In this document: positions 12,676 to 29,061 of the stretch, piece after piece
How positions within the stretch are numbered: position 1 is the first letter of the stretch
How the letters are laid out: each line of letters opens with the position of its first letter
Assembly (NCBI GenBank): GCA_963841195.1
Contig: CAWJBX010000014.1
Span: 335,914-399,913 of the forward strand
Source: an uncultured Actinomycetes bacterium
Lineage (GTDB): Bacteria > Actinomycetota > Acidimicrobiia > IMCC26256 > PALSA-610
DNA length: 64,000 nt
Reading direction: 5' to 3'
Program-made: the position numbers and the translations under genes
The notes under the pieces: generated by a model
Seen by the model: only the letters and a program-made list of their open reading frames with translations
Told to the model about the DNA's origin: nothing
Databases searched by the model: none

Positions 12676-13412
12676 GTGCGGTGACGTTCGACTTTTCAGC
12701 GCGCCACGTCCTCGTCACCGGCGGGACCTCGGGCATCGGGCTCGCGATCGCGCGCGCGTTCGAGACCGCTCGTGCGCGCGTCACGATCACCGGCCGCCGC
12801 GCCGCTGCATCCGAGTACGACGTCGATCTCTCGCCGTTTTCGTATCACCAGTGCCGCATGAGCGAATCCGCCGACATCGAACGCCTCGCCGGCGGCATCG
12901 ACGAACTCGACGTCCTCGTCAACAACGCGGGCGAAAACCTTCCGGGCGGAAAGAGCGAGTGGGATCCGGAAGTCTTCGAAGCTGCGGTCACAGCAAACCT
13001 GTTCGGCGCGTTCCGGCTCACGACGACGCTCCGCCCGCTGCTTGCCGCGAGCACAAACGCGGCGGTCGTCAATCTCGCGTCGATGTCGTCGTACTTCGGG
13101 ATGGAGATCGTGCCCGGATACGGCGCGGCCAAAGCCGCCATCGTGCAGATGACGAAGACGCTCGCGGTGTCATGGGCGCGCGACGGCATTCGCGTCAACG
13201 CAGTCGCACCCGGAATCGTCGAGACGAACATGACGGCACCGATGCTCGGCATCGACGCGATGACCGCGCCGTTGATGGCGCGTACGCCGATGGCGCGCTT
13301 CGCGTCGCCCGAAGAGGTCGCACCCGTCGTGCTCTTTCTCGCGAGCCCGGGTGCGAGCTACATCACCGGCCAAACGCTGCCTGTCGACGGCGGCTTCTCC
13401 GTAATGGGCTAG
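12672..13412 (+). CDS. SDR oxidoreductase
   Basis: TGGTSGIG, NNAG, YGAAK, VDGG; ATGA overlap. Confidence 0.93.
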   Translation: MSAVTFDFSARHVLVTGGTSGIGLAIARAFETARARVTITGRRAAASEYDVDLSPFSYHQCRMSESADIERLAGGIDELDVLVNNAGENLPGGKSEWDPEVFEAAVTANLFGAFRLTTTLRPLLAASTNAAVVNLASMSSYFGMEIVPGYGAAKAAIVQMTKTLAVSWARDGIRVNAVAPGIVETNMTAPMLGIDAMTAPLMARTPMARFASPEEVAPVVLFLASPGASYITGQTLPVDGGFSVMG

Positions 13413-13952: not shown

Positions 13953-13970
13953 GCTACGCAAACGCGTGAT
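13953..13970 (+). promoter_or_regulatory. LuxR-type box A (GCTACG-N6-CGTGAT)
   Basis: 22 nt before TAGCGT, then 7 nt to ATG 14006. Confidence 0.7.
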
Positions 13971-14005
13971 TGGATCCTGAGGCCCGAGCGCGTAGCGTGC
14001 GCGGC

Positions 14006-14182
14006 ATGCCGACATACCGCATGGTCTATGGGGACGACGCCGAGGTCAGGGACGAGACCCTCCGCGACGTCGATGTGGAACGTGAAGACGGATGGGTCGT
14101 GTTCTTTCGTGGGAAGGAAGCGGTTCTCCGCGTACAAGAAGCGCACGTAAAGTCGCTCGACATCGTGAGCGACGAGTCCTGA
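14006..14182 (+). CDS. Small hypothetical protein (58 aa)
   Basis: Leaderless promoter geometry; beta-rich sequence MPTYRMVYGD..EDGWVVFFRG. Confidence 0.7.
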   Translation: MPTYRMVYGDDAEVRDETLRDVDVEREDGWVVFFRGKEAVLRVQEAHVKSLDIVSDES

Positions 14183-14189
14183 CGCCCCG

Positions 14190-14582
14190 TTAGGAAGTCT
14201 CGGCCGCGATCCCGGCAATGACGGCGACCCCGCGCAACGCGTCCGTTTCGGGAGCCGAGAGACCATGGCGATCGGCAAGAAACTCAGGTGTGTTGTAGCT
14301 CACGAACACCTCGCCGGGACCGCGTTCCCAGATCAAGAGCTTCAACGGCAGATCGAGCGCGAGTTCGGGATGCGCAAGCATCAACGGCGTGCCGTGCAAC
14401 GGACTCCCGAAGATCACCAGCTTGGTCTCAGGCATCGTCAGCCCGACCTCGGCCGCCTCACCGCTGTGGTCGACGACCGAAAAGATCGTGAGTTGCCGCG
14501 CTTCGATTTCGGCAACGACCCGGCGCAGCACCTGTTCCACCGGTTGCCGGCACGGAAGCGTTGTTATCCCTGCCTGCTCCAC
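14190..14582 (-). CDS. DUF302 domain protein
   Basis: FSVVDHSGEA..LVIFGSP..GTPLM..LDLPLKLLIWE. Confidence 0.88.
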   Translation of the reverse strand: MEQAGITTLPCRQPVEQVLRRVVAEIEARQLTIFSVVDHSGEAAEVGLTMPETKLVIFGSPLHGTPLMLAHPELALDLPLKLLIWERGPGEVFVSYNTPEFLADRHGLSAPETDALRGVAVIAGIAAETS

Positions 14583-14628
14583 CCGGCGAGCGTAAGGAAC
14601 ACGATCGCGGCTCGAATCCCGGAAGTGC

Positions 14629-17373
14629 TTAGTCGTTCGCGATGGCGCCCGCGAGCGCACGCCGCGAGGTGATGCCGAGTTTTCGGTACACCTTGCGCAA
14701 GTGGTACTCGACCGTGCTGGCGCTGATGAACAATTGCGCTGCGATCTCGGGGTTCGTACCTCCGGCCGCGGCCAGCGCGGCAATCTGGCTCTCTTGCGGC
14801 GTCAAGTCGTCACGAGTTTCGTCAACCCGCTTGCGCGCGGTTTCTCCAGTTGCAAGCAGCTCGACTCGGGCGCGTTCGGCGAACGCAGTGGCGCCCTGTT
14901 CGGTGAACAGATCGAGTGCGAGCCGGAGGAATTCGCGCGCGTCTCGACGCCGTTTCTGGCGCCGGAGCCACTCGCCGTAAAGCAGCTGGGCACGCGCGAG
15001 ATGGAGCATGCCGCCGTTCTCGCGCAGGCAATCGATCGACTCCTGATACTGCGACTCCGCCTCGGAGCCCGCGGCGAGCAGCGCGCGCGACCGCGCCAAA
15101 AGACCCCGCTCGTAGGGCATTTTCGTGGCCACCGCGAGTTCCTCGAGCCAGTCGAGAAATTCGCGGGCGTCGTCGGGTTCGCCCGCCCGCACGCGCGCCT
15201 CGACCGCGTCGGAGCAGATCAACGCGCTCTCGGCGATGTCGTCCTTCCAGCCGTCGGTGACTGCGTTGGTCGCGGCGCGGTAGTTGCCGAGTGAGAGCTC
15301 GAGCGTCCCGATCCCGACGGCGGAGAGCGACGCGCTCCACCCCAGCTGACGTTCGCGGGCGTTCGCTTGAATGAAGGCCGCCGCGGCGCGAGCGCGTTCC
15401 TCGTCGCCCCGCCACGTGAGCACGAGCATCTCGCCGATCGTTCCCGAGTTGTAGATCGACCGCACCTGTTGCAGCACCGCCTCTTCGGCGAAACAGGTAT
15501 CGGCGCGTGCGAGCGTGCCGGCGCGCAGTTCGAGCAATCCGACGTAGTGCAGCGCCTCGCCGAGGTGATTCAAGGCACCCATCGCGCGCGAAAGCGCGAT
15601 GTATTCGTTGCCGAGTTTGAATCCGGCTACGTGGTCGCCGACTGCATAGGCCGCCCAAAGGCCGAACGACATGCGTCTCGGTATTTCCCGCATCGCGGGA
15701 TCGATGAGGATCGCGTCGAGGGCACGACGCAGCACCGGCGCCGCCATTGCCGGACCGGACAAGTAGTACTCCGCGAGACCGTCGAGCACGAGATCGGTCG
15801 ACGTCGGCGCTTCGCCGTCGGGGAGCGGCATCGATTTGGCCGCGCGCGCAACGTCTTGTACGCCGGCCGCCGACCATTTCCCGAACCACACGGACATCAA
15901 GAGCGCGTCGAGCACCGTCTCGCGCGCCTCACGCACGTCGTACGCGTGCAGCGCGTTGGCCGCTTCGAGCATGATCGCGGGTGACTGTCCACCTTTGCCG
16001 AGCGCGAAGTCGATGCCGCCTTCCAGCCGGCGGGCCTGGGCGTTGACGAACGCATCGTTCAACATCGGTTTCGCAAGGTCGAGCGTCGCCCGGGCGTTGA
16101 TCGGCTGGCCCGCGGTGAGATCGGCAGCCGCGGCGCGCAGGAAACGAATGCCACGCGCGGTCGGGTCGGGCGTGAGCTGCGCGGCGCGCGTCAACAACGC
16201 AGCCGTCGACGCGAATCCGCCCTGGTGGCTGGCACGATCGGCGGCGGCGTCGAGCTCGGCGGCGACCTCTTCGTCGGGTGCCAGCGTCGCGGCGGCGCGG
16301 TGCCACGCGTGCCGGTCGGGATCGAGCGCGATTTCGGTTGCTTCCGCGAGTGCGGCATGCGTGCGCCGGCGCTCGCTGTCCTTCGCTCCGTGGTAGATCG
16401 CCTCGCGAATCAGAGGATGGCGAAAACTGATCGGCGGCCCGAAGTTCACAAGGTCGGCCGCTTCGGCTTCTTTCGCCGCGTCTTCGTCGAAATCCAGTGC
16501 CGCACCCACGCGCCAAAGCAGGACCGGATTGCCCGTGGGATCGGCAGCTGCCGCGAGCAAGAGCCGTTGGGTGGGTGGCGGAAGCGCGCGCACTTGGCGC
16601 ATGAAGCGCGTCTCGAGTTGGCGGTCGAACGCAAGCGGCTGCGGGAGCAACGCCGCACCGGGCGACGCGCGTTGTGTCAGTTCGCGAGTGAGTTCGACGA
16701 TCGCGAGCGGGTTGCCGCGCGCGTCGGCAAGCACGCGGGTTCGCATGTCGTCGTCGACCGGACCGCCGACGACTGCTTCCATGAGTTCGACGCATGCGCG
16801 CCGCGTCAGCGGACCGACTTCGAGTGCGGGCAGCCCGTCGACCGCGAGTTCGCGCTCGGTTGGCAACCGAACGCCAATCAGCACACCGATTCGGTCCGCG
16901 TAGAGACGGCGCACGACGAACGCGACCACGCTCTCACTCTCTTGATCGAGCCACTGGGCATCGTCGATCAACAGGAGCAGGCCGCGCTTGGTGGCCGCGG
17001 TGGCCAGCAGCGTCAGCGTCGCGAGCCCGACGAGAAATCGGTCGGCCGCGACCCCGTCACCCAAACCGAACGCCGCACGCAGCGCGTTGGCCTGCGGCTC
17101 CGGCAGCGACGCGACGTCCTCGAGGAACGGCAGCAACAGCTGATGCAGCGCCGCGAAGCGGAGGCTCATCTCCGATTCGATACCGATCACGCGCAGCACA
17201 TCGAGGTCGTCGGCACCGGCGACGACGTCGTCGAGCAACGCCGTCTTCCCGATCCCGGCTTCGCCCCGCACAACCAGCGCGGCGCTCATGCCGGCGCGCA
17301 CCGAAACGAGCACGTCGGCGAGCGCCTGGCGTTCTTCAACCCGCCCGACCAGCTCGATCGCGCACCCGTCCAT
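14629..17373 (-). CDS. Large ATP-binding LuxR (LAL) regulator 1
   Basis: Walker A GEAGIGKT, IDDAQWLD, GNPLA, FRHPL, C-terminal HTH ISASTVEYHLRKVYRKL. Confidence 0.93.
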   Translation of the reverse strand: MDGCAIELVGRVEERQALADVLVSVRAGMSAALVVRGEAGIGKTALLDDVVAGADDLDVLRVIGIESEMSLRFAALHQLLLPFLEDVASLPEPQANALRAAFGLGDGVAADRFLVGLATLTLLATAATKRGLLLLIDDAQWLDQESESVVAFVVRRLYADRIGVLIGVRLPTERELAVDGLPALEVGPLTRRACVELMEAVVGGPVDDDMRTRVLADARGNPLAIVELTRELTQRASPGAALLPQPLAFDRQLETRFMRQVRALPPPTQRLLLAAAADPTGNPVLLWRVGAALDFDEDAAKEAEAADLVNFGPPISFRHPLIREAIYHGAKDSERRRTHAALAEATEIALDPDRHAWHRAAATLAPDEEVAAELDAAADRASHQGGFASTAALLTRAAQLTPDPTARGIRFLRAAAADLTAGQPINARATLDLAKPMLNDAFVNAQARRLEGGIDFALGKGGQSPAIMLEAANALHAYDVREARETVLDALLMSVWFGKWSAAGVQDVARAAKSMPLPDGEAPTSTDLVLDGLAEYYLSGPAMAAPVLRRALDAILIDPAMREIPRRMSFGLWAAYAVGDHVAGFKLGNEYIALSRAMGALNHLGEALHYVGLLELRAGTLARADTCFAEEAVLQQVRSIYNSGTIGEMLVLTWRGDEERARAAAAFIQANARERQLGWSASLSAVGIGTLELSLGNYRAATNAVTDGWKDDIAESALICSDAVEARVRAGEPDDAREFLDWLEELAVATKMPYERGLLARSRALLAAGSEAESQYQESIDCLRENGGMLHLARAQLLYGEWLRRQKRRRDAREFLRLALDLFTEQGATAFAERARVELLATGETARKRVDETRDDLTPQESQIAALAAAGGTNPEIAAQLFISASTVEYHLRKVYRKLGITSRRALAGAIAND

Positions 17374-17484
17374 CGTTTTATTGTTGGCGCCTGCATCGAC
17401 ACGCGCAATGGTGCGTTTTGGCCGCGGACGCCGAGTTCGCGCGCTGAGCAGTTCCGGAGCCGCGGCCCGAAGTCCGCCGGGCCG

Positions 17485-17502
17485 ACTACGTGATCGCGGG
17501 AT
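17485..17502 (+). promoter_or_regulatory. LuxR-type box B (ACTACG-N6-CGGGAT)
   Basis: 22 nt before GAGGCT, then 7 nt to ATG 17538. Confidence 0.7.
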
Positions 17503-17537
17503 TCGAACCCGACGGTCGGCACGCGAGGCTGCCGACC

Positions 17538-17918
17538 ATGTGGAAACGCCGCACCGCACGCACTTCCGAACCGGTCGAGACCGCTGCCTTCTGTGAATGG
17601 GTGGCGAGCCTCCCCTACGTGACCCAGCGCGCTCACGGGTTCTCGTCGACCGTTTCGATCTTCGATATCGACTGCGCACCACTCGAACGGCGCATTACCT
17701 GGCTGATGGTCGACGGCGCGCCGGCCGTCGCCCGCGCGCCGGCGCGCATTTCGACGCTGCTTCCGCGGATGGTTGCCCGAGCGGCCGAACGATCGGGCCT
17801 TGGATGCTGCACCGCGCCTCGGCTCCCCGACCACGTCCTGTTCAGCGTCGACCCGCTCGCGCATCCGCGCGACGTCGAGTCCCTCGTGCTCGCTGCGTAC
17901 GGCGCAGCGATGTCGTGA
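17538..17918 (+). CDS. Hypothetical protein, paralog of 28352-28753 (possible YjbR/DUF5519-like fold)
   Basis: Shares F.EWV.SLP.V..R, C.PL.R...WL and D.E..VL.AYG.A with the paralog. Confidence 0.8.
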   Translation: MWKRRTARTSEPVETAAFCEWVASLPYVTQRAHGFSSTVSIFDIDCAPLERRITWLMVDGAPAVARAPARISTLLPRMVARAAERSGLGCCTAPRLPDHVLFSVDPLAHPRDVESLVLAAYGAAMS

Positions 17919-17954
17919 GCGCGAGTCGACGGCTTCGCTTCGTGAGGTGAAACT

Positions 17955-18953
17955 ATGAAGGTGAGCGAATTCCTCCACGCCCCGCTTCCGGTCAAAGGGC
18001 ACATGCCTGGTTTCGCCGGCACCAACGACTGGCTGAACAGCAAGCCGTTGTCGCCTACCGACCTCCACGGCAAGGTCGTGCTCGTCGACTTCTGGACGTT
18101 TACGTGCATCAACTGGCTGCGGACGCTGCCGGCGCTGCGCGCGTGGAACGACGCGTATGCGAAGCACGGCCTGGTGACCATCGGTGTCCACACTCCGGAG
18201 TTCCAGGTCGAACACGACATCGCGAACGTGCGCCGCGCCGCGCGAGAGATGCGCGTCGAGTATCCGATCGCGATCGACAACGACTACGAGGTGTGGGACG
18301 CGTTCGCGAACCAGTACTGGCCCGCGATATATCTCGCCGACGCCGAGGGTCGCATTCGTCACACGCATTTCGGCGAAGGTGGTGAGGAACGGACCGAGCA
18401 CGTCATCCGCCGGTTACTCACCGACGCGGGCGCAACCGGACTTCCCGAGAGTCCCGTCCCGTACACCGCCGAGGGCATCGAGATCCCCGGCGACTCCCAC
18501 GACCTTCGTTCGGGCGAGACCTACGTGGGGCTCGCGCGGTCGACGGGCTTCGCGTCACCGGAAGGTGCGTCGTTCAACGAGTCGCGCGCGTACACGCTCC
18601 CGCCCCGCCTTTATCTCAACGAATGGGGGCTCGACGGCAACTGGACGATCGGTCGCGAGGAAGCTGTCACCAACGAACCCAACGGCCGCATCGCGTTTCG
18701 TTTTCACGCGCGCGACCTGAACCTCATTCTCGAACCGCCCGCATCGGGCACAAGCGCGCGCTTTCGCGTCACGATCGACGGTGAACCACCGCACGGCGCC
18801 CACGGTCTCGACGTTGACGAGAAGGGCGACGGCATCGTCAGCGAGACGCGCCTGCACCAGCTGATTCGCCAGCACGGGAGCATCACCGACCGGCAGTGTG
18901 AGATCGAGTTCCTGGATCCCGGCGTTTCGGCGCTTTGCTTTACCTTCGGCTAA
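17955..18953 (+). CDS. DipZ-like redoxin (thioredoxin fold plus C-terminal domain), CxxW active site
   Basis: GKVVLVDFWTFTCINWLRTLP, GVHTPEF, NQYWP, HFGEG, ends FTFG. Confidence 0.9.
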   Translation: MKVSEFLHAPLPVKGHMPGFAGTNDWLNSKPLSPTDLHGKVVLVDFWTFTCINWLRTLPALRAWNDAYAKHGLVTIGVHTPEFQVEHDIANVRRAAREMRVEYPIAIDNDYEVWDAFANQYWPAIYLADAEGRIRHTHFGEGGEERTEHVIRRLLTDAGATGLPESPVPYTAEGIEIPGDSHDLRSGETYVGLARSTGFASPEGASFNESRAYTLPPRLYLNEWGLDGNWTIGREEAVTNEPNGRIAFRFHARDLNLILEPPASGTSARFRVTIDGEPPHGAHGLDVDEKGDGIVSETRLHQLIRQHGSITDRQCEIEFLDPGVSALCFTFG

Positions 18954-18969
18954 CCGAGAGGATGCTTCT

Positions 18970-19425
18970 GTGCACGTGTTGATTGCGAGCGATGGCTCGC
19001 GCGCCGCGATCGCGGCCGTTGCCGACGCGATCGCGCAGCTTGCGCCGCCCGAACACGTGACGCTGCTCACCGTGCTGAACGACTTGCCCGTCGAGGACTA
19101 CGACGAGTTCGACGAACCGCTTCCTTCGCCCGAAACACAGCGGCGATCGTGGGACAACGCGATCAAGGAAGCGAATTACGAACTCGAACGCGCGGCCGCG
19201 ACGCTCGCGGCCGGTCACGTCGAGACCCGGGTCGAAGCCGGCGACGTCGCGCCCACGATCTGCACGGTTGCGCGTGAGATCAACGCCGACGTCATCGTGA
19301 TCGGCGCGCAGATGGGCGGGCGCGTTCGGCGCCGATTCCGCACCTCGGTCGCCGAACGCATCGTTCGGGACGCGCCGTGCGCGGTGCTGATCGCGCAAGG
19401 AAAGCGAGATGACGATGGCACATGA
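18970..19425 (+). CDS. Universal stress protein
   Basis: VLIASDGS, ADVIVIGA, SVAERIVRDAPCAVL. Confidence 0.88.
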   Translation: MHVLIASDGSRAAIAAVADAIAQLAPPEHVTLLTVLNDLPVEDYDEFDEPLPSPETQRRSWDNAIKEANYELERAAATLAAGHVETRVEAGDVAPTICTVAREINADVIVIGAQMGGRVRRRFRTSVAERIVRDAPCAVLIAQGKRDDDGT

Positions 19426-20650
19426 CACCGAGGCCTTCGTACTGGGTGGCGCGCGCACGCCGATCGGACGCTACGGCGGTTCGCTCGCACGCGTGCGCAC
19501 CGACGACCTCCTCGCGTTTGCGATGCGCCACGCGGTGGAGCGGGTCGGCATCGAGCCCGGCGTGATTGAAGACATCGCGGCCGGCGTCGTGAACGTCGCG
19601 CACGAAGGAATGGGCGACATCGGCCGTTGGGCCGCACTCGCCGCCGGTTTCCCCGACGACGTTCCCGCGTACACGATCAATCGTTTCTGCGCTTCGTCGC
19701 TGACCGGGACCGCGAACATCGTGAACGCCATCAAAGTCGGTGAGATGGGTGTCGGGATGGCGGCCGGCGTCGAGTCGATGAGCCGGTCGGGCTGGGCGTG
19801 GATGAAGAACGAAGAGCCCTTCGGACCGCGCGGGCCGCAGTTCTTGCTCGACACGATGTGGGCGGGCGCGGGCGGCCCACCGAATCCGCAGCTCCTCGCG
19901 CGCAACGCGTACATCGCGATGATCGAAACCGCGCAGAAGCTCGCCGACATCTACGAACTCACGCGCGAAGAGATCGACGCGTTTGCGCTCCGGTCGCATC
20001 GACACGCGGCCGCGGCCCAAGCGAGCGGCCGCCTCGCGCGCGAGATCGCCCCGATCGACGTTCCCGCCGAGCGCCACACGACCCGTCGCTTCGAACACGA
20101 CGAGTTCATTCGCCCCGACGCATCGCTCGAAGCCCTTGCGAAGTTGCCGGCCCAACCGAACACGACGCAAATGACAGCCGGGAACTCATCCCCACTTTCG
20201 GACGGCGCGAGCGCGGTCGTGCTCGCGAATGAAGCCCGCGCCGGCGCGCTCGGCGCAGCACCGATGGCGCGCGTGCTCGCGTCGGCGACGGTCGCCGTCG
20301 ACCCGACGATCATGGGTATCGCGCCCGCGTACGCGATCCCGAAGGCGCTGGCGCGTGCCGGGGTCGAACCGGAAGACGTCGATGTGTACGAGATCCACGA
20401 AGCATTCGCAGCGCAAGCGCTCGCGGTGTTGCGCGAATTCCCGAAACAGACCGGCTACACGATCCCTGACGAAAAGCTGAATCCCAACGGTGGCGCAGTC
20501 GCGCTCGGCCATCCGTTCGGCGATTCGGGGACGCGGTTGGTGTTGTCGCTGGCGACCGAACTTGCGGTCACCGGCAAGCGGTACGGCGTGATCGGCGTGT
20601 GCGTCGGCTCGGGCCAGGGCGTCGCGCTCGTGCTCGAGCGCGTGGCGTAA
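19409..20650 (+). CDS. Thiolase (acetyl-CoA acyltransferase)
   Basis: RTPIG, NRFCASS, HEAFA, GHPFG, CVGSGQG. Confidence 0.93.
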   Translation: MTMAHDTEAFVLGGARTPIGRYGGSLARVRTDDLLAFAMRHAVERVGIEPGVIEDIAAGVVNVAHEGMGDIGRWAALAAGFPDDVPAYTINRFCASSLTGTANIVNAIKVGEMGVGMAAGVESMSRSGWAWMKNEEPFGPRGPQFLLDTMWAGAGGPPNPQLLARNAYIAMIETAQKLADIYELTREEIDAFALRSHRHAAAAQASGRLAREIAPIDVPAERHTTRRFEHDEFIRPDASLEALAKLPAQPNTTQMTAGNSSPLSDGASAVVLANEARAGALGAAPMARVLASATVAVDPTIMGIAPAYAIPKALARAGVEPEDVDVYEIHEAFAAQALAVLREFPKQTGYTIPDEKLNPNGGAVALGHPFGDSGTRLVLSLATELAVTGKRYGVIGVCVGSGQGVALVLERVA

Positions 20651-20656
20651 CTCGCC

Positions 20657-21139
20657 TTATCCGTAAACGACCCGGGTGACCCATTCGGCAACGAGCGCGG
20701 GCTTGTCTTCGCCGTCGATCTCGACGGTGAAGCTCCGCGTCAGGTCGATCGCGCTGCCCTTGAGCTCGACGTTCGTGGTCACACCCCGGGCGCGGATACG
20801 CGATCCAACCTTCACCGGATTCACGAAGCGCACCTTGTTGAAGCCGTAGTTGATGCCCATCAACATGCCCGCGTACTTCGCCGGGTCGGGAGCCGCCGAA
20901 CTCGCTCCTTGCGAGAGGTGCGTAAGCATCGACAGCGTCAAGAAGCCGTGCGCGATGGTGGTGCCGAACGGGGTTGCCTTCGCGCGCTCCGGGTCGACGT
21001 GAATGAACTGGTGGTCGTGGGTGACGTCGGCGAACTGGTTGATTTGGTCCTGGGTGACCTCGAACCAGTCGCCGGTTCCTTCGTCGTTGCCGATATCGGC
21101 CTGAAACAGGGGGAACGCCTTCTCGGCAGCTTCGCTCAT
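20657..21139 (-). CDS. MaoC-family dehydratase
   Basis: FADVTHDHQFIHVD..TIAHGFLTLS, NYGFNKVRF. Confidence 0.92.
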   Translation of the reverse strand: MSEAAEKAFPLFQADIGNDEGTGDWFEVTQDQINQFADVTHDHQFIHVDPERAKATPFGTTIAHGFLTLSMLTHLSQGASSAAPDPAKYAGMLMGINYGFNKVRFVNPVKVGSRIRARGVTTNVELKGSAIDLTRSFTVEIDGEDKPALVAEWVTRVVYG

Positions 21140-21173
21140 GCGGCGACCTTAGAGCAGCGCCCGGCTATCCGAA

Positions 21174-21191
21174 ACTACGCGGGCGCGGGAT
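21174..21191 (+). promoter_or_regulatory. LuxR-type box C (ACTACG-N6-CGGGAT)
   Basis: 22 nt before CAACCT, upstream of the alpha/beta hydrolase. Confidence 0.7.
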
Positions 21192-21249
21192 GCGACCACT
21201 CGTTCATGGGGCGCAACCTCTGCGTGTCATCACACGACTGGAGCCGCAC

Positions 21250-21981
21250 ATGACCGTTACACCCTCGACCTCAGGACCGAACGTCGTCCTCGTGCACGGC
21301 GCCTTCGGCGACGCGTCCGGCTGGGCGGGCGTCATCAACGAACTCTGCGCGGCGGGCGTCAACGTCGTTGCACCGCCGAACCTGCTGCGCGGGCTGATCT
21401 CCGACGCCGCCTACATCACGAGCTTCCTCAAGCAGCTCGGCGGCCGCAACATCCTCGTCGGCCACTCCTACGGTGGCGCGGTGATCACGCAGTCGGGCGC
21501 CGACGCCGGCAACGTTGTCGGGCTCGTGTACGTGAACGCGTTCGGCCCCGACGCCAAGGAATCGCTCGGCGCGATCGGTGATCGTTACGCCGACCGTGGG
21601 CTGGGCGCGGCGCTGCGTCCGCTCACCTACCCGACCGACGGTCAGCCCGGCACTGAGCTGTACGTCGACCACGACGCGTTCCACGAAGTGATCTGTGCCG
21701 ACGTGTCCGCCGAGACGGCGCGCGTGCTCGCGCTGACGCAACGGCCCGTCGCAGCGTCGGTCTTCCAGGAAGAGCTCACGTCGACACCCGCGTGGAAGAC
21801 GTTGCCCTCGTGGGCCGTCATCTCGACCGGTGACCACGCGATCAACCCCGATGCGGAGCGCGACATGGCGAAACGCGCGAACGCCGAGTATGTCGAGACC
21901 AACGGCGCCCACTTCATCATGGTTTCGCAACCGTCGACCGTCGCCGAACAGATTCTGCGCGCCGTGAAGGCAACGAGCTAA
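21250..21981 (+). CDS. Alpha/beta hydrolase
   Basis: VLVHGAF, GHSYGG nucleophile elbow, D and H triad residues. Confidence 0.92.
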   Translation: MTVTPSTSGPNVVLVHGAFGDASGWAGVINELCAAGVNVVAPPNLLRGLISDAAYITSFLKQLGGRNILVGHSYGGAVITQSGADAGNVVGLVYVNAFGPDAKESLGAIGDRYADRGLGAALRPLTYPTDGQPGTELYVDHDAFHEVICADVSAETARVLALTQRPVAASVFQEELTSTPAWKTLPSWAVISTGDHAINPDAERDMAKRANAEYVETNGAHFIMVSQPSTVAEQILRAVKATS

Positions 21982-21990
21982 GACGACGCG

Positions 21991-22215
21991 ATGACAGATC
22001 CGACGTTCGCGCAGGACATCAAGCCGTTGTTCCGCGAGAAAGACCGCGACTCGATGACCTTCATGTTCGACCTCTGGTCGTACGACGACGTGCGCAAGAA
22101 CGCGCCGGCGATCCTCACGATCGTGAAGGAAGGCCGCATGCCGTGTGACGGCCCATGGCCCGACGATCGCGTCGATCTCTTCGAACGTTGGACCGAAACC
22201 GGCATGAACGCGTGA
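21991..22215 (+). CDS. Small hypothetical protein (74 aa)
   Basis: TFAQDIKPLFR..FDLWSYDDV..GRMPCDGPW..LFERW; good codon usage. Confidence 0.8.
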   Translation: MTDPTFAQDIKPLFREKDRDSMTFMFDLWSYDDVRKNAPAILTIVKEGRMPCDGPWPDDRVDLFERWTETGMNA

Positions 22216-22308
22216 CGATCCCGAAAGGAGATCGCGAATGAGTTCCGTATCCAGCGTTACGCCTGAAGGCCCCGGTTCGGTGACCTGAGCGCCGGCGCAA
22301 CGCCTCGC

Positions 22309-22352
22309 GTTTGGACGTTTCGCGCCCCTATAGGGGCGCGAAACGTCCAAAC
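22309..22352. repeat. Perfect 44-bp spacer-less palindrome
   Basis: gtttggacgtttcgcgccccta|taggggcgcgaaacgtccaaac. Confidence 0.95.
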
Positions 22353-22369
22353 CCCGCGGTTTCGAGCGA

Positions 22370-23107
22370 TCAGCCGGTGAGCGCGAGCTCGCGTTCGTCG
22401 GCCAGCGCGCGCAGCTTGTCGGAGCTCGCGGCCAGCAGCCGCGAGACCTGCATCTGGCTCACGCCGATCTCACGCGCGATCGCGGTCTGCGAGAGGTCGG
22501 CGTAGTAACGCATCTTGACGATGCGGCGCTTGCGTTCGTCGAGTCCGGCGAGCAGCTCGTCGACGAGCACGCGGTCGTCGGCCGCGTTGATGTCGTGCTG
22601 CGCCGGGATTTGCGCCGCTCCTGATTCGTCGATGCTCCGGCCTTCGTAACGCCGGTACGCGTGCATCACCGTTTGCGCTTCCTCGACCTCATCGCGCGTC
22701 CAGCCGCCTGCATCGGCAAGTTCGTCAACCGTCGGTTGGCGCCCGCAGGCGTTGGTCAACTGCTCCGACGTCGCGACGACGTGCAGCGCGCGCTCTCCGA
22801 CGGAACGCGGCGGGCGCACGATCCACGTGTGGTCGCGGAGGTGCCGCTTCAACGTGCCGGCGATCGTCGGCGCCGCGAATGTCGAGAATGTGACGCCCCG
22901 CTCGGGGTCGAAGCGTTCGACCGCACGCGTCAGACCGATCAACGCAACCTGACGCAGGTCGTCGCGTTCTTCGCCGCGGCCCTCGAAACGGCGCGCGATC
23001 GAATAGGCGAGACCGAGGTGCGCTTCGACCAGCTTGTCGCGCAAGCGGCTGTCGCCGGTTGCACGAAATTCGTCGAAAACGGCGGTCATGGAACGGCGCT
23101 CGGACAT
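22370..23107 (-). CDS. SigB/SigF-family RNA polymerase sigma factor
   Basis: DDLRQVALIGL..AVERFDP.RG..FSTFA.PTI.G.LKRHLRD; SQT.IA..IGVSQMQVSRLL. Confidence 0.93.
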   Translation of the reverse strand: MSERRSMTAVFDEFRATGDSRLRDKLVEAHLGLAYSIARRFEGRGEERDDLRQVALIGLTRAVERFDPERGVTFSTFAAPTIAGTLKRHLRDHTWIVRPPRSVGERALHVVATSEQLTNACGRQPTVDELADAGGWTRDEVEEAQTVMHAYRRYEGRSIDESGAAQIPAQHDINAADDRVLVDELLAGLDERKRRIVKMRYYADLSQTAIAREIGVSQMQVSRLLAASSDKLRALADERELALTG

Positions 23108-23142
23108 GAGACTCACGCTTTCATGTGGGGGCGTTACCGGAC

Positions 23143-23160
23143 ATCACGCGAACACGTGTG
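23143..23160 (-). promoter_or_regulatory. LuxR-type box F (CACACG-N6-CGTGAT)
   Basis: 22 nt before AAGCGT, then 7 nt to the sigma ATG 23107. Confidence 0.7.
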
Positions 23161-23195
23161 CATCGACGACGGTACGCACATGCCCCTTTCGTCGA

Positions 23196-23213
23196 ATCCC
23201 CGGCTCGCGTAGT
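23196..23213 (-). promoter_or_regulatory. LuxR-type box E (ACTACG-N6-GGGGAT)
   Basis: 21 nt before TACCGT; second, upstream promoter of the sigma gene. Confidence 0.7.
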
Positions 23214-23241
23214 TCGCCCCGCCGGAACGCCAAAACACGAA

Positions 23242-23259
23242 ACTACGCGTCTGAGGGAT
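23242..23259 (+). promoter_or_regulatory. LuxR-type box D (ACTACG-N6-AGGGAT)
   Basis: 22 nt before CAACAT, upstream of the epoxide hydrolase. Confidence 0.7.
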
Positions 23260-23314
23260 GCGACACCGCTTGACTTGGGCGCAACATGAGGGCACCACAG
23301 CGAGGAGGACCCCC

Positions 23315-24538
23315 GTGACGAACACGACGACAACGAAGCCGCGGAGCACCAGCACGGCCGACACCAGCATCCGACCGTTTCGCGTGCACTTCGCCGACGA
23401 GGACCTCGCCGAGCTGCGCCGCCGTATTGCCGCGGCGCGTTTGCCGCATCGCGAGCTCGTCGAGGACCGGTCGCAAGGCGTGCAACTGGCGACCGTCGAG
23501 GCGCTCGCACGGTATTGGACGACGGAATACGACTGGCGGCGCTGCGAAGAACAACTGAACGCCCTGCCGCAGTTCGTCACCGAGATCGACGGCGTCGACA
23601 TTCACTTCATTCACGTGAAGTCGCAACACCCGAACGCACTGCCGTTGATCATGACGCACGGCTGGCCCGGCTCGGTGATCGAACTGCTCGGCTCGATCGG
23701 CCCGCTCACCGATCCCACTGCACACGGCGGCCGCGCCGAAGACGCGTTCGATCTCGTGCTGCCCTCGATGCCCGGCTACGGCTTCTCGAGCGAACCGGCT
23801 GAGACCGGTTGGGCGACGCCGCGCATCGCGAAAGCCTGGGACGAACTCATGGGCCGACTCGGCTACACGCGTTACGTCGCCCAGGGCGGCGACCAAGGCG
23901 CGGCCGTGACCGACGACCTCGGCCACCTCGCACCCAAGGGACTCGTCGGAATCCACATGAACTTGCTGCGCGCCGCGCTCGGGCCGGTGAGTCTCGCGTC
24001 GGCGAATCCGACCGACGAGGAGAAGGTCGCGCTCGCGGGGCTGGCGACGTTCAACACGAGTGGACGCGGTTACTTCCTCGAGCAGGCGACGCGCCCGCAA
24101 ACGATCGGGTACGCACTGCTGGATTCACCGCTTGCAATGGCGGCGTGGATTCTCGATCACGACACCGACAGCTACGAGAAGATCGCGCGTGCGTTCGTCG
24201 ACGGAACTCCGACGGGCGGCCTCACACGCGATCACGTGCTCGACAACATCACGATGTACTGGCTCACCGGAACCGGCGCATCGGCGGCGCGTTCCTACTG
24301 GGAAGGAGCGCAAGCCGGCGCGCGCGCGAAGGGGCAGACGCCGACCCCGGTGCAAGTGCCCGTTGGCTTTACGCAGTTCCCGGGCGAGATCTTCCTGCCG
24401 CCGCGCAGTTGGGTCGAGAAGCTGTATCCGCACGTCACGTACTACAACAAGGCCGCCCGGGGCGGACACTTCGCGGCATGGGAAGAGCCGGAACTCTTCG
24501 CCGAGGAACTGCGGGCCGCGTTCGCGGCCGTGCGCTAA
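23315..24538 (+). CDS. Epoxide hydrolase (EHN plus alpha/beta fold)
   Basis: IRPFRV, YDWRR, HGWPGS, QGGDQG, GGHFAAWEEP; GAGGAGG RBS. Confidence 0.94.
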   Translation: MTNTTTTKPRSTSTADTSIRPFRVHFADEDLAELRRRIAAARLPHRELVEDRSQGVQLATVEALARYWTTEYDWRRCEEQLNALPQFVTEIDGVDIHFIHVKSQHPNALPLIMTHGWPGSVIELLGSIGPLTDPTAHGGRAEDAFDLVLPSMPGYGFSSEPAETGWATPRIAKAWDELMGRLGYTRYVAQGGDQGAAVTDDLGHLAPKGLVGIHMNLLRAALGPVSLASANPTDEEKVALAGLATFNTSGRGYFLEQATRPQTIGYALLDSPLAMAAWILDHDTDSYEKIARAFVDGTPTGGLTRDHVLDNITMYWLTGTGASAARSYWEGAQAGARAKGQTPTPVQVPVGFTQFPGEIFLPPRSWVEKLYPHVTYYNKAARGGHFAAWEEPELFAEELRAAFAAVR

Positions 24539-24572
24539 CAGCGCACGGCCGCCGCAACGCGCCCAGAGAACG

Positions 24573-25223
24573 CTAGAGAACGTCGACGCGGTCGACGACC
24601 TTCTGGACACCGGGCGCGTCCCACGCGGTCGACTCGGCTTCGTCGCGCGTGGTCCACGAGTCGGCGGTGCCGTCGAGGTACACCGTCGAGCCGACGTTCG
24701 ACACGGTGATGCGCGTGTCGTCGATGATTGCGTTGCGCTTGAACGCCTTGTTGATGCGGTCGGCGATGTCGCTCGGAATCGGTTCACTCGAGATGCCGAT
24801 GTTGTCGGTCATGCCGAGCACACCGTCGACCTTGCGCACCGCGTGTTCGGCTGCTTGGCGTTCGAAGTGGTGACGCACTTGGCCGCTCAATGTGACATAG
24901 CCCTCGAGCACGTCGGCGCTTACGGCTCCCTTCGGGACGAACTTGTCGCCGTCGAGTGCGTTCGCTGCGGCCACTGCGATTTCAGCGTCAGTGACGGCAT
25001 CACCAACGAGGCCCACGAGGATCTGGTTGTCGATGCCCTTCACACCTCGGACCTTGGAGGCGTCGTCGCATGCACGCTCGACTTGCAAGAGGGTCGGTAC
25101 CGATCCGGTGAGCGTTACTGTGCCGTCGTCGGCTTTGACGACGATGCGCGTGGCGTCGACTTGCGGATCCCATTCGAGCTCGTCTTTCACGTCGTGTTCC
25201 AGGAGGTTGTTCGGCTTGTGCAT
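24573..25223 (-). CDS. BON domain protein (three BON repeats, OsmY-like)
   Basis: Three G.V.L.G...GV..V/I repeats. Confidence 0.92.
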   Translation of the reverse strand: MHKPNNLLEHDVKDELEWDPQVDATRIVVKADDGTVTLTGSVPTLLQVERACDDASKVRGVKGIDNQILVGLVGDAVTDAEIAVAAANALDGDKFVPKGAVSADVLEGYVTLSGQVRHHFERQAAEHAVRKVDGVLGMTDNIGISSEPIPSDIADRINKAFKRNAIIDDTRITVSNVGSTVYLDGTADSWTTRDEAESTAWDAPGVQKVVDRVDVL

Positions 25224-25292
25224 GGCGGAGCTGTCCTTTTCTCGTCAGGGTTTCGGGAACCCCAAACGATGGACGCCACGAAAGCCGCCAAC

Positions 25293-25310
25293 ATCACGCG
25301 AGCACGTGAA
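25293..25310 (-). promoter_or_regulatory. LuxR-type box G (TTCACG-N6-CGTGAT)
   Basis: 21 nt before CATCGT; acatcacgcgagcacgtg (25291-25308) is 17/18 identical to 23141-23158. Confidence 0.7.
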
Positions 25311-25316
25311 AGCACT

Positions 25317-28351: not shown

Positions 28352-28753
28352 ATGCTCCGCCGCCGTGAGTCCCGGTCCGCGCCGCCGACAACCGTCGCAC
28401 CGGCGTTCGCGGACTTCCACGAGTGGGTGTTGAGCCTGCCCTGGGTGGTCGAACGGCCGTACAGCGTCGGCACTCCGGGCGTCCGGTGCTTCGCGGTCGA
28501 GTGTGAACCCCTTGCCCGGCACCAGCTCTGGCTGATCACCGGAATCCAACGGCAGCTCGACATGGCCGGCATCGGCCTCGCCGTCATCATTCCGAAAACA
28601 GTTGCGAACGAACTCGAAGCCGCCGACCGCGCCCAGGTCTTGGCGCCGATGGCCGGCCGCAACGTTCTCGTCACCCTGCACGGGGCCGCAATGGGCAGCC
28701 GCCAGGACCTCGAAGCGGTGGTGCTGACCGCCTACGGCTGCGCGCTGGCGTGA
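28352..28753 (+). CDS. Hypothetical protein, paralog of 17538-17918
   Basis: GAGGAGG RBS; full-length alignment with the paralog. Confidence 0.8.
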   Translation: MLRRRESRSAPPTTVAPAFADFHEWVLSLPWVVERPYSVGTPGVRCFAVECEPLARHQLWLITGIQRQLDMAGIGLAVIIPKTVANELEAADRAQVLAPMAGRNVLVTLHGAAMGSRQDLEAVVLTAYGCALA

Positions 28754-28794: not shown

Positions 28795-29061
28795 ATGACC
28801 AATGTTGACCTCGAGACGCGTGGCACGCGCCGGCGCCGGCCCGCGATCGGATGGACGAGCCTGACCGAATCGGAACGGGCGCTGGCCGTATTGATTTCCG
28901 AAGGCATGACAAATCGCCAGGCGGCCGAACGGCTCTACATCTCGCGCCACACCGTCGACGCGCACTTGCGGCACATCTTCGCCAAGTTGGGCATCAACTC
29001 GCGCGTGGGTTTGGCGCGACTCGTCGCCGTCCACATGTACGCCGGTGCGGACACGCTGTAG
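28795..29061 (+). CDS. Stand-alone LuxR HTH protein
   Basis: GWTSLTESE..GMTNRQAAERLYISRHTVDAHLRHIFAKL; GGAGG RBS. Confidence 0.9.
   Translation: MTNVDLETRGTRRRRPAIGWTSLTESERALAVLISEGMTNRQAAERLYISRHTVDAHLRHIFAKLGINSRVGLARLVAVHMYAGADTL

What the first reader, a model, noticed from the sequence alone, without database searches (positions are those of the whole stretch)
13953..25310. Seven-copy promoter box with fixed spacing defines a candidate LAL/LuxR regulon across a stress island
Seen: an 18-bp box recurs in intergenic DNA at A 13953(+) GCTACG-caaacg-CGTGAT, B 17485(+) ACTACG-tgatcg-CGGGAT, C 21174(+) ACTACG-cgggcg-CGGGAT, D 23242(+) ACTACG-cgtctg-AGGGAT, E 23196(-) ACTACG-cgagcc-GGGGAT, F 23143(-) CACACG-tgttcg-CGTGAT and G 25293(-) TTCACG-tgctcg-CGTGAT. 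Each is followed after 21-22 nt by an nAnnnT hexamer (TAGCGT, GAGGCT, CAACCT, CAACAT, TACCGT, AAGCGT, CATCGT), and in A, B and F the ATG lies exactly 7 nt later. Established: LuxR-family activators bind inverted repeats near -42 beside weak core promoters. Inference: the two LAL ATPases and/or the solo LuxR HTH activate a 58-aa orphan, the orphan/redoxin/USP/thiolase operon, two hydrolases, a BON protein and a SigB/F sigma factor. Two subtypes (ACTACG..VGGGAT versus ..ACG..CGTGAT) could map to different recognition helices (ASTVEYH, SRTVEWH, RHTVDAH).
Basis: partly seen in the sequence, partly recalled or inferred. Interest (0 to 1): 0.85.

Follow-up and report, generated by a model that had tools for sequence, protein, structure and literature searches.

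The report
Conserved LuxR-type promoter box regulon
An 18-base DNA box sitting just upstream of weak promoters marks a conserved stress-gene regulon in uncultured soil Acidimicrobiia, most likely switched on by LuxR-family regulators encoded beside it; it is a new example of a familiar kind of gene switch.

Summary
All seven boxes are at the stated coordinates, each followed 21-22 nt later by an nAnnnT hexamer; in A, B and F an ATG follows 7 nt later. An eighth, weaker box lies at 14616(-).

The box is not confined to the island. The genome holds about 21 such promoters at 7 loci, in front of BON, DUF308, USP, four epoxide hydrolase paralogues, a DAG kinase and a SigB/F-type sigma factor. Box, spacing and target genes recur in at least seven other Acidimicrobiia genomes.

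The box is most likely an operator centred near -42 to -44, read by LuxR-type HTH proteins acting as activators.

There are two classes:
- **Class 1**, asymmetric ACTACG-N7-GGGAT, lies next to LAL1-type STAND-LuxR genes, including in genomes that lack the other regulator.
- **Class 2**, palindromic ATCACG-N6-CGTGAT, goes with a GAF-PAS-LuxR protein and its HTH-only "solo" relatives, including in a genome where no LAL was found.

Hybrid boxes exist, so this mapping is tentative. No binding or transcript data exist. This is a new member of a known kind, of moderate interest.

The parts
13953..13970 (+). Box A, a hybrid type (GCTACG..CGTGAT). -10-like TAGCGT at 13993-13998; ATG at 14006, apparently leaderless.
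14006..14182 (+). 58-aa ORF downstream of box A. No family found and no homologue in the loci examined.
   Evidence: Pfam and NCBIfam gave nothing; tblastn found only itself
14190..14540 (-). DUF302 gene, probable target of the weak eighth box.
   Evidence: Pfam; same order LAL1-box-DUF302 in G339 (L075)
14616..14633 (-). Eighth, weak class-1 box (ACTAAG..CGGGAT, 12.5 bits) with TACGCT 21 nt later. It overlaps the stop codon of LAL1 (gene end 14629).
   Evidence: conserved position in G339
14629..17373 (-). LAL1: AAA_16 STAND ATPase, weak TPR and GerE HTH (helix ASTVEYH). Divergent from box B.
   Evidence: Pfam; HTH alignment; orthologues
17485..17502 (+). Box B, class 1 (ACTACG-N7-GGGAT). GAGGCT at 17525-17530; ATG at 17538, apparently leaderless.
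17538..20650 (+). Operon of orphB (17538-17918, a conserved unnamed family), AhpC/Thioredoxin_10 (17955-18953), USP (18970-19425) and thiolase (19409-20650).
   Evidence: Pfam; orphB homologues
21174..21191 (+). Box C, class 1. CAACCT 22 nt later. An alpha/beta hydrolase gene starts at 21250 behind a GGAG Shine-Dalgarno sequence and ends at 21981.
22370..23107 (-). SigB/SigF/SigG-family sigma factor with two tandem box promoters.
   Evidence: Pfam; NCBIfam TIGR02980 as top hit, below its cut-off
23143..23160 (-). Box F, class 2 (CACACG..CGTGAT), the proximal sigma promoter. AAGCGT at 23115-23120; ATG at 23107, apparently leaderless.
23196..23213 (-). Box E, class 1, the distal sigma promoter. 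TACCGT at 23169-23174.
23242..23259 (+). Box D, class 1. CAACAT 22 nt later. An epoxide hydrolase gene follows, with a GTG at about 23315 behind GAGGAGG, ending at 24538.
24573..25223 (-). Protein with three BON domains (OsmY-like), target of box G.
   Evidence: Pfam; NCBIfam; 9 of 11 close orthologues have the box
25293..25310 (-). Box G, class 2 palindrome (TTCACG..CGTGAT). CATCGT at 25266-25271. It starts 6 nt after the LAL2 stop codon.
25317..28095 (-). LAL2: an AAA_16 N-terminal part and a GerE C-terminal part (helix SRTVEWH) in two reading frames, with a 1-nt frameshift at about 27405-27409.
   Evidence: Pfam; tblastn with the intact paralogue
28352..28753 (+). orphB2, a paralogue of orphB (30% identity), lying between LAL2 and the solo LuxR. 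No box upstream.
28795..29061 (+). 88-aa HTH-only "solo" LuxR (helix RHTVDAH), the same HTH class as the GAF-PAS-LuxR proteins.
   Evidence: Pfam

Best explanation
The box is an operator for LuxR-type (GerE-domain) helix-turn-helix regulators. It abuts or overlaps the -35 region, with its centre at about -42 to -44, of promoters that have only a weak -10 (nAnnnT, often CAnnnT). Several of these promoters give leaderless mRNAs. Bound regulator most likely recruits RNA polymerase, as a class-II-type activator does. Together the boxes define a stress-type regulon: BON, DUF308, USP, peroxiredoxin-like, epoxide and alpha/beta hydrolase genes, a DAG kinase, a SigB/F-type sigma factor, and some of the regulators themselves.

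There are two operator classes:
- Class 1 is asymmetric, ACTACG-N7-GGGAT followed by kCGA. It is probably read by LAL1-type STAND ATPase-LuxR proteins (LAL1 in the window, and the LAL at C10:57003-59747).
- Class 2 is an 18-bp palindrome, ATCACGyG-NN-CrCGTGAT. It is probably read by dimers of a GAF-PAS-LuxR one-component sensor (C3:4566-5589 in this genome), possibly together with or in competition with its HTH-only solo relatives (window 28795-29061).

Shown: the motif, its spacing, its genome-wide distribution, its conservation across genomes, and its co-localisation with these regulators. Inferred: who binds, activation rather than repression, and the transcription starts.
For: 1. Fixed architecture. 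In this genome about 21 sites show box, then 21-22 nt, then nAnnnT. In A, B, F, C3:310(-) and C17:194329 an ORF-opening ATG follows 6-7 nt after the hexamer. The USP orthologue in G009 has the same leaderless layout. This places the box at -53 to -36.

2. Conservation. 9 of 11 BON orthologues with at least 55% identity have a box plus hexamer directly upstream. They are in G000 (3), G018, G009, G318, G342 and G414 (2); the misses are G039 and G318:C36. DUF308, USP, DAGK, orphB and hydrolase genes are also box-driven in other genomes.

3. Regulators beside boxes. 3 of the 7 box loci in G000 hold LAL, GAF-PAS-LuxR or solo genes. The order box-BON-LAL-(reverse)GAF-PAS-LuxR is shared by G000 C3, G018 and G009.

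4. Class 1 with LAL1-type.
- In the automatic count, 9 of the 10 LAL1-type gene loci with a box within 450 bp have class 1 only. One of these (L064) is a hybrid with a CGTGAT right half, passed by the one-mismatch rule, and two pairs of divergent LAL genes share a single box.
- In G339, G193 and G227 the exact class-1 pattern has 2, 1 and 2 hits. Of these 5, 4 lie within about 300 bp of an LAL1-type gene.
- G339 and G193 show no GAF-PAS N-domain match.

5. Class 2 with GAF-PAS-LuxR.
- Full-length homologues occur in 9 of 401 class genomes, among them all 5 genomes of that sample with box-bearing BON genes.
- Without the unpublished G292, 4 of 8 such loci have a box with a hexamer within about 1.5 kb.
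- That compares with 3 of 20 loci matched through the HTH alone.
- G414 has the GAF-PAS-LuxR next to box-bearing BON genes. No LAL was found there (only HTH-length matches) and it has 0 exact class-1 patterns.
- Metagenome contig L085 repeats the box-BON...GAF-PAS-LuxR arrangement without an LAL in 16.5 kb.

6. The palindrome fits a dimeric LuxR-type HTH. The predicted fold of the sensor part matches the GAF-PAS domain DhaR(N) (E 4e-9). The HTH matches NarL bound to DNA (TM 0.88 on the target), and PAS/LOV-LuxR activators VqmA and EL222 are also among the hits.

7. Within G000, an ACTACG left half and a GGGAy right half go together: 8 of 8, against 2 of 13 other sites (Fisher p = 2e-4).
Against: - There are no binding, expression or transcription-start data. 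No RNA run holds the region.
- Hybrid boxes with an ACTACG left half and a CGTG right half lie next to GAF-PAS-LuxR genes (L081, L087) and next to an LAL1-type gene (L064). The half-sites are therefore not cleanly partitioned.
- Many regulator loci have no box within 450 bp: 32 of 42 LAL1-type by best hit, 27 of 27 LAL-C3-type, 10 of 16 GAF-PAS-LuxR and 30 of 33 solos. All 13 distant LAL loci have none.
- There is no box upstream of the window's solo, orphB2 or LAL2, nor near the second solo.
- Four G000 box loci have no LuxR gene nearby.
- The G000 copy of GAF-PAS-LuxR is split by a frameshift or stop codon, and LAL2 is frameshifted too.
- A site over the -35 region could equally be a repressor operator.
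- Related genomes are not independent samples. G000 is only 74.5% complete, and no completeness figure is given for G414.
Confidence: 0.6

Rival explanations
1. One regulator class reads all the boxes, either the GAF-PAS-LuxR/solo type or one LAL type. The two "classes" would be affinity-tuned or duplicated variants of a single operator, and the other LuxR genes in the islands would have other sites or act upstream.
For: - Hybrid boxes occur (L064 6741, L081, L087).
- Both classes sit at the same distance from the hexamer.
- Promoters C and D share extra similarity downstream of the box, as expected from duplication.
- The four epoxide hydrolase paralogues could have carried their promoters along when they duplicated.
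Against: - Class-1 boxes next to LAL1-type genes recur in G227, G318, G339 and G193.
- The exact class-1 pattern is not found in the LAL-less G414, and is found in genomes without the GAF-PAS N-domain.
- The residues at the recognition-helix positions differ between the HTH classes.
Confidence: 0.2
2. The box is a repressor operator. A LuxR-type dimer sitting over the -35 region would block RNA polymerase until a signal releases it.
For: The box overlaps the -35 position. LuxR-type HTH proteins can also act as repressors; I recall this of GerE and checked it in no call.
Against: - The -10 hexamers are weak: most begin with C, G or A rather than T, and no -35-like hexamer is conserved in class 2. 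That pattern is typical of activator-dependent promoters.
- The position matches class-II activators such as LuxR and TraR near -42 (recalled).
- The sigma gene has two tandem boxed promoters.
Confidence: 0.15
3. A regulator that is not of the LuxR type, for example a CRP/FNR-family protein encoded elsewhere, binds the 5-N6-5 dyad TCACG-N6-CGTGA. The LuxR genes would merely be members of the regulon.
For: - The 16-bp dyad with a 6-bp spacer and a site near -42 has the CRP/FNR geometry (recalled).
- Four box loci have no LuxR gene nearby.
- Two CRP-type genes exist in the genome.
Against: - The CRP-type genes (C11:30482, C7:141142) are not near any box with a hexamer.
- The half-sites are the inside-out form of TGTGA/TCACA.
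- LuxR-class genes co-localise with boxes across genomes.
- Class 1 is not a dyad.
Confidence: 0.05

Closest known systems
Lux-box / tra-box class-II promoters of LuxR-family activators (LuxR, TraR); position and symmetry recalled, not checked in a call
   Same: An 18-20 bp dyad centred near -42, next to a weak core promoter, read by a dimer carrying a GerE-type HTH. The regulator is often encoded beside its target and regulates its own gene.
   Different: - There is no autoinducer-binding domain. The sensors here are STAND ATPase/TPR (LAL) or GAF-PAS domains.
- The sequence is different.
- One class is asymmetric.
- The host is an actinobacterium with leaderless mRNAs.
MalT / LAL regulators, including mycobacterial IniR (PMC5760070, passages read)
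   Same: LAL1 and LAL2 have the architecture of AAA+/STAND ATPase, helical sensor region and LuxR-like HTH (Pfam). IniR has the same three-part build and activates a stress operon.
   Different: - The passages I read give no operator sequence for IniR.
- MalT boxes (recalled: GGGGAkGAGG, in several copies) are not seen here. Class 1 is a single bipartite site per promoter.
- Only the HTH part of LAL1 matches the NCBIfam MalT model, and only the HTH of the solo and the GAF-PAS-LuxR matches the IniR model.
DevR/DosR and OsdR dormancy regulons (PMC5069765, passages read)
   Same: A stress regulon rich in USP genes, under a NarL/LuxR-type HTH that binds a 16-bp palindrome. Sites cluster around the regulator gene.
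   Different: - The consensus there is AGGGCCGATCGGCCCT, which is unrelated to ATCACG-N6-CGTGAT.
- Those regulators are phosphorylated response regulators; none of the candidates here has a receiver domain.
PAS/LOV-LuxR one-component activators (VqmA, EL222), and the GAF-PAS sensor domain of DhaR (fold hits)
   Same: The GAF-PAS-LuxR model aligns to the DhaR(N) GAF-PAS domain (E 4e-9). Its HTH aligns to NarL bound to DNA. VqmA and EL222 share the plan of a sensor domain followed by a LuxR HTH.
   Different: Sequence identity is 15-20%. The ligand or partner is unknown. DhaR uses a sigma-54 AAA+ output rather than a LuxR HTH.
HTH-only LuxR proteins (GerE; PedR, which was named by the NCBIfam hit)
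   Same: The 86-88 aa solos consist of the GerE domain alone.
   Different: They are clear relatives of the C-terminus of the GAF-PAS-LuxR proteins (54-59% identity in the HTH). Their role here, as co-activator or competitor, is unknown.

Membership tests
LuxR-type class-II operator (lux-box-like) | Dyad symmetry of 16-20 bp | tested here: inconclusive
   Class 2 is a good dyad, with perfect examples such as ATCACGCGCTCGCGTGAT in G342. Class 1 (ACTACG-N7-GGGAT) is not a dyad.
LuxR-type class-II operator (lux-box-like) | Centre near -42 relative to the transcription start | tested here: inconclusive
   The centre is -41.5 to -44.5 if the leaderless ATGs mark the start. No transcription-start data exist.
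LuxR-type class-II operator (lux-box-like) | Bound by a GerE-domain protein that activates transcription | not testable with these tools
   Only co-localisation and co-occurrence are available.
LAL / MalT-type STAND regulators (LAL1, LAL2) | N-terminal P-loop STAND/AAA ATPase plus C-terminal LuxR HTH in a protein of about 900 aa | tested here: met
   AAA_16 and GerE are present in LAL1, LAL2 (in two reading frames) and the C10 LAL.
LAL / MalT-type STAND regulators (LAL1, LAL2) | Helical repeat (TPR/SUPR) sensor region between the ATPase and the HTH | tested here: inconclusive
   Only a weak TPR_12 hit in LAL1 (E 0.002, below the cut-off). No structure was predicted.
DevR/DosR/OsdR regulon | Palindrome of the AGGGCCGATCGGCCCT type and a receiver-domain regulator | tested here: not met
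   The box sequence is unrelated (against PMC5069765). The candidate regulators have no receiver domain in Pfam.
CRP/FNR site | TGTGA-N6-TCACA-like half-sites (recalled) and a CRP-family regulator associated with the sites | tested here: not met
   The spacing geometry is the same but the half-sites differ. The two CRP-type genes are not near any box.
SigB/SigF-type promoter | GTTT-like -35 about 12-17 nt upstream of a GGGTAT-like -10 (recalled) | tested here: not met
   No conserved GTTT lies upstream of GGGAT. The ACTACG element is only 7 nt away, and the leaderless ATGs fit the downstream hexamer as the -10.
GAF-PAS-LuxR one-component regulator | N-terminal GAF and PAS folds plus a C-terminal GerE HTH | tested here: met
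   - The AlphaFold model has mean pLDDT 77.6.
- Its top Foldseek hits are DhaR(N) GAF-PAS.
- Distant homologues carry Pfam GAF.
- GerE is present.

The most novel reading that the evidence does not exclude
Related LuxR-type HTH classes share one promoter position and partly overlapping half-sites. These are a ligand-gated STAND ATPase (LAL), a GAF-PAS sensor, and HTH-only solos derived from the GAF-PAS sensor. Different signals would then converge on one stress regulon through operator variants: class 1, class 2 and hybrids. The solos would act as natural competitors or partners at the same boxes. If so, class 1 would be, as far as I know, the first defined operator for a non-biosynthetic actinobacterial LAL, bipartite and butted against the -35. 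The conserved 126-aa orphB protein, always paired with these LAL genes, would be a new accessory factor of the system.
Probability: 0.25. Interest if true: 0.65.

Novelty: new member of a known kind. Interest (0 to 1): 0.5.

Why it matters
- LAL-type regulators are numerous in Actinobacteria (this genome has about ten). As far as I recall, few have a known operator or regulon outside antibiotic gene clusters.
- This case gives a concrete, conserved operator, a defined target set and testable regulator candidates in an uncultured soil lineage (Acidimicrobiia) for which no regulatory data turned up in my searches.
- It offers a natural system for asking how paralogous LuxR HTH domains divide up, or share, operator variants.
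- It links BON, DUF308, USP and epoxide hydrolase genes and a SigB/F-type sigma factor into one stress response.
- The biology is of a familiar type, so the result extends existing ideas about gene control rather than overturning them.

Tried and rejected
**Chance or a repeat element.** Rejected. Only 18-25 bp are conserved. They sit at a fixed distance from the hexamer and start codon, upstream of orthologous genes in several genera.

**SigB/F-type promoter, DosR box, CRP site.** See the membership tests; none fits.

**Expression data.** No RNA holder is listed for window 17300-25400. The six DNA holders have shares of 0.05-0.07.

- The search for related loci in genome contigs with the single BON protein returned only one locus, L014.

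**Genome-to-genome pattern comparison.** The pattern ATCACG-N6-CGTGAT with one mismatch is too noisy for this: 6-16 hits per strand in genomes with or without the regulon.

**Negative results.**
- Distant LAL homologues: 0 of 13 loci (at most 46% identity to the best query) have a box within about 3 kb.
- Own LALs at C7, C16 and C9: none, apart from one hit in L175 without a hexamer.
- No box of 10 bits or more upstream of LAL2, orphB2 or the solo.
- No box with a hexamer near the second solo at C14:470.7k.
- None between orphB and the LAL1-type gene in G342 (L068).
- None upstream of the BON gene in G039.
- GAF-PAS-LuxR loci L037, L039 and L040 have no box within about 1.5 kb. L038 has only one, without a hexamer, at the edge of the locus.
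- BON homologues of 38-40% identity in G129 (4 loci) and G312 have no box with a hexamer. G295 has one ambiguous site.

**Site M corrected.** C3:6686(-) was first read as leaderless. The ATG after its hexamer opens no ORF of 45 aa or more, so the DAGK gene starts at least 70 nt downstream.

**Literature.** Full-text searches found no description of this motif or regulon:
- LuxR + BON domain + universal stress protein + epoxide hydrolase + Actinobacteria.
- LAL family + LuxR + binding site + consensus sequence + STAND.
- Acidimicrobiia + LuxR + universal stress protein + regulon (none of the 8 listed papers holds "Acidimicrobiia").

The library covers only CC-licensed PMC papers and bioRxiv. 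Supplements were not consulted. I saw search listings and abstracts, plus passages of PMC5760070 and PMC5069765.

Full report
**Setting**

The window is G000:C14:335914-399913, from a 4.96-Mb draft of 21 contigs with 66% G+C and 74.5% completeness. The nearest named relative found is an uncultured Acidimicrobiaceae MAG. The relatives held are mostly unnamed genera of one order. The assembly carries single-base indels. For example, a USP gene is in frame in the C11 copy but shifted at a C-run in the near-identical C3 copy.

**Checking the observation**

- With a 17-site weight matrix, these seven are the only hits of 17 bits or more in the window.
- An eighth, weaker site at 14616(-) overlaps the LAL1 stop codon and precedes the DUF302 gene. 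The same order, LAL1-box-DUF302, is seen in G339.

Pfam and NCBIfam confirm the genes:

| Gene | Coordinates | Box |
|---|---|---|
| LAL1 (AAA_16 + GerE) | 14629-17373, minus strand | divergent from B |
| orphB, then AhpC/Thioredoxin_10, USP, thiolase | 17538-20650 | B |
| alpha/beta hydrolase | 21250-21981 | C |
| SigB/F/G-type sigma factor | 22370-23107, minus strand | F proximal, E distal |
| epoxide hydrolase | about 23315-24538 | D |
| 3xBON protein | 24573-25223, minus strand | G |
| LAL2, split over two frames at about 27405-27409 | 25317-28095, minus strand | G lies 6 nt after its stop |
| HTH-only LuxR, 88 aa | 28795-29061 | none |

**Is it more than chance?**

- The exact pattern ACTACG-N7-GGGAT occurs 5 times in the genome. 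All 5 are intergenic and 4 are in the window. The reversed control pattern occurs 0 times.
Of these, 8 are intergenic by my crude gene calls (16.8% of the genome is intergenic) and 4 are intergenic with a hexamer at 21/22.
- Forty column-permuted matrices gave on average 3.3 hits and 0.075 such combined hits.
- nAnnnT occurs at 2.6% of positions. After 84 hits of 15 bits or more it is seen 15 times at offset 21 and 6 times at offset 22, against 0-4 times at every other offset from 8 to 35. That histogram is partly circular, because I chose ten of the seeds with the hexamer in view.

**A genome-wide regulon**

Further sites with the same architecture:

| Site | Gene downstream |
|---|---|
| C10:60044 | 139-aa ORF, no family searched |
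| C10:60761 | epoxide hydrolase |
| C3:310(-) | USP, leaderless |
| C3:339 | DUF308 |
| C3:967 | BON |
| C3:6686(-) | DAG kinase, followed by a LuxR gene |
| C3:6727 | DUF308 |
| C17:99455(-) | epoxide hydrolase |
| C17:191826(-) | BON paralogue |
| C17:194298(-) | DUF308 |
| C17:194329 | DUF308, leaderless |
| C19:41921 | epoxide hydrolase |
| C18:305736(-) | unclear |

With the eight window sites this makes about 21 promoters at 7 loci. All four epoxide hydrolase paralogues are included.

**Position of the box**

In five sites the ATG that opens the ORF lies 6-7 nt after the hexamer. Leaderless mRNAs are common in Actinobacteria (recalled). This supports reading the hexamer as the -10, which puts the box at about -53 to -36.

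**Conservation in other genomes**

- BON orthologues with at least 55% identity carry a box plus hexamer directly upstream in 9 of 11 cases. The misses are G039 and G318:C36, where the box is shared with a divergent DUF308 gene.
- Box-driven DUF308, USP, DAGK, orphB, alpha/beta hydrolase, Hsp20-like and other genes are seen in G009, G018, G318, G342, G315, G039 and G414.
- BON homologues of 38-40% identity in G129 and G312 have no box with a hexamer.
- The close BON gene occurs in only 8 of 401 genomes sampled from the class, all in one order. The system is therefore accessory.

**Who binds? Candidate regulators**

The genome has 38 GerE-domain matches, about ten of them in LAL-sized frames. 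By recognition helix, those near boxes fall into three classes:
- STVEYH: LAL1, the C10 LAL and the C3 LAL.
- RTVEWH: LAL2.
- HTVD(A/S)H: the solos and the C3 gene.

The C3 "solo" is in fact the end of a protein of about 310-360 aa, intact in G009, G018 and G414. Its N-terminal part:
- has no Pfam family;
- has distant homologues that carry a GAF domain;
- gives an AlphaFold model (mean pLDDT 77.6) that matches the GAF-PAS sensor of DhaR (E 4e-9).

I call this protein GAF-PAS-LuxR. The order box-BON-LAL-(reverse)GAF-PAS-LuxR is shared by G000 C3, G018 and G009.

**Two operator classes**

In G000, sites with an ACTACG left half always have a GGGAy right half (8 of 8). The other sites mostly have CGTGAT (11 of 13).

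Class 1 is not a dyad and extends into kCGA. It lies beside LAL1-type genes:
- in the window (B, and 14616);
- on C10;
- in G227, G318:C50, G339 and G193.

In G339, G193 and G227 the exact class-1 pattern has 5 hits in all. Four of them lie within about 300 bp of an LAL1-type gene. G339 and G193 show no GAF-PAS N-domain match.

G414 is the reverse case:
- its GAF-PAS-LuxR lies next to two box-bearing BON genes and a DAGK gene;
- LAL queries match only HTH-length stretches there;
- it has no exact class-1 pattern.

Further support for class 2 with GAF-PAS-LuxR:
- Full-length GAF-PAS-LuxR homologues were found in 9 of 401 class genomes, among them all 5 genomes of that sample that have box-bearing BON genes.
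- In metagenome contigs, 4 of the 7 that match the N-domain hold a strong box. L085 repeats box-BON...GAF-PAS-LuxR without an LAL in 16.5 kb.

**Results against a clean split**

- Hybrid boxes (ACTACG...CGTG) lie next to GAF-PAS-LuxR genes (L081, L087) and next to an LAL1-type gene (L064).
- Most regulator loci have no box within 450 bp.
- Distant LALs have none.
- The window's solo, orphB2 and LAL2 have none upstream.

The regulator assignment therefore rests on inference from co-localisation and co-occurrence among related genomes.

**Mechanism**

- A dimeric LuxR-type HTH on an 18-bp dyad near -43, beside a weak -10 (mostly CAnnnT) and no conserved -35, is the layout of class-II activation (recalled for LuxR and TraR). 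I rate activation more likely than repression.
- The LAL would add ATP- and ligand-dependent control.
- The GAF-PAS protein would add a small-molecule or partner signal.
- The sigma factor gene carries one box of each class, so it may combine both inputs.

**Comparison with known systems**

- The DevR/OsdR regulons are the nearest functional analogues, but their palindrome, AGGGCCGATCGGCCCT, is unrelated (PMC5069765, passages read).
- IniR is the nearest studied actinobacterial STAND-LuxR. The passages I read give no operator for it (PMC5760070).
- My three literature searches found no description of this box.

**Verdict**

The feature is real and conserved. It is a new member of a known kind of gene switch. 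The regulator mapping is plausible but untested.

Noticed in passing
window 25317-28095 (-), break at about 27405-27409: LAL2 is split into two reading frames by a 1-nt shift. Its paralogue at C9:645.4-648.1k and the G318 orthologue are intact. This is either a pseudogene or an assembly indel.
   Followed up: partly
window 17538-17918 and 28352-28753; L065, L066, L068, L168: "Orphan" B belongs to a conserved protein family of about 126 aa with no Pfam or NCBIfam model (13 relatives in the protein database). In these genomes its genes lie beside or divergent from LAL genes. A paralogue sits between LAL2 and the solo LuxR.
   Followed up: partly
G000 C3:1-450 and C11:1-200: Two contig ends carry nearly the same box pair and genes, with a few substitutions and a homopolymer indel. 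This is either a duplicated region or strain variants collapsed at contig ends.
   Followed up: no
window 25293-25310 and 14616-14633; L081, L093, L103, L109: Boxes or box-like sequences often begin within about 10-35 nt after the stop codon of a LuxR-family gene. The regulator gene and the boxed promoter of the next gene are packed tightly together.
   Followed up: no
L060 1720-1737 (G389): A different perfect palindrome, ATCACCCGGTCGGGTGAT, lies next to an LAL-sized LuxR gene. It shares its outer TCAC/GTGA ends with the box. It resembles a motif I recall for Streptomyces BldM.
   Followed up: no
window 11373-13412 (+): A single ORF combines a sulfotransferase domain with a short-chain dehydrogenase domain.
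   Followed up: no
window 21271-22350 (-): A 359-aa ORF antisense to the alpha/beta hydrolase gene outscored it in my codon-bias gene caller. This is a reminder that antisense frames look coding at this G+C content.
   Followed up: no
L065 3069-5245 (G318:C105): Four class-1-like boxes lie within 2.2 kb around a sigma factor orthologue. Here the sigma gene lies downstream of a box-driven dehydrogenase-like gene, rather than having its own two boxes.
   Followed up: partly
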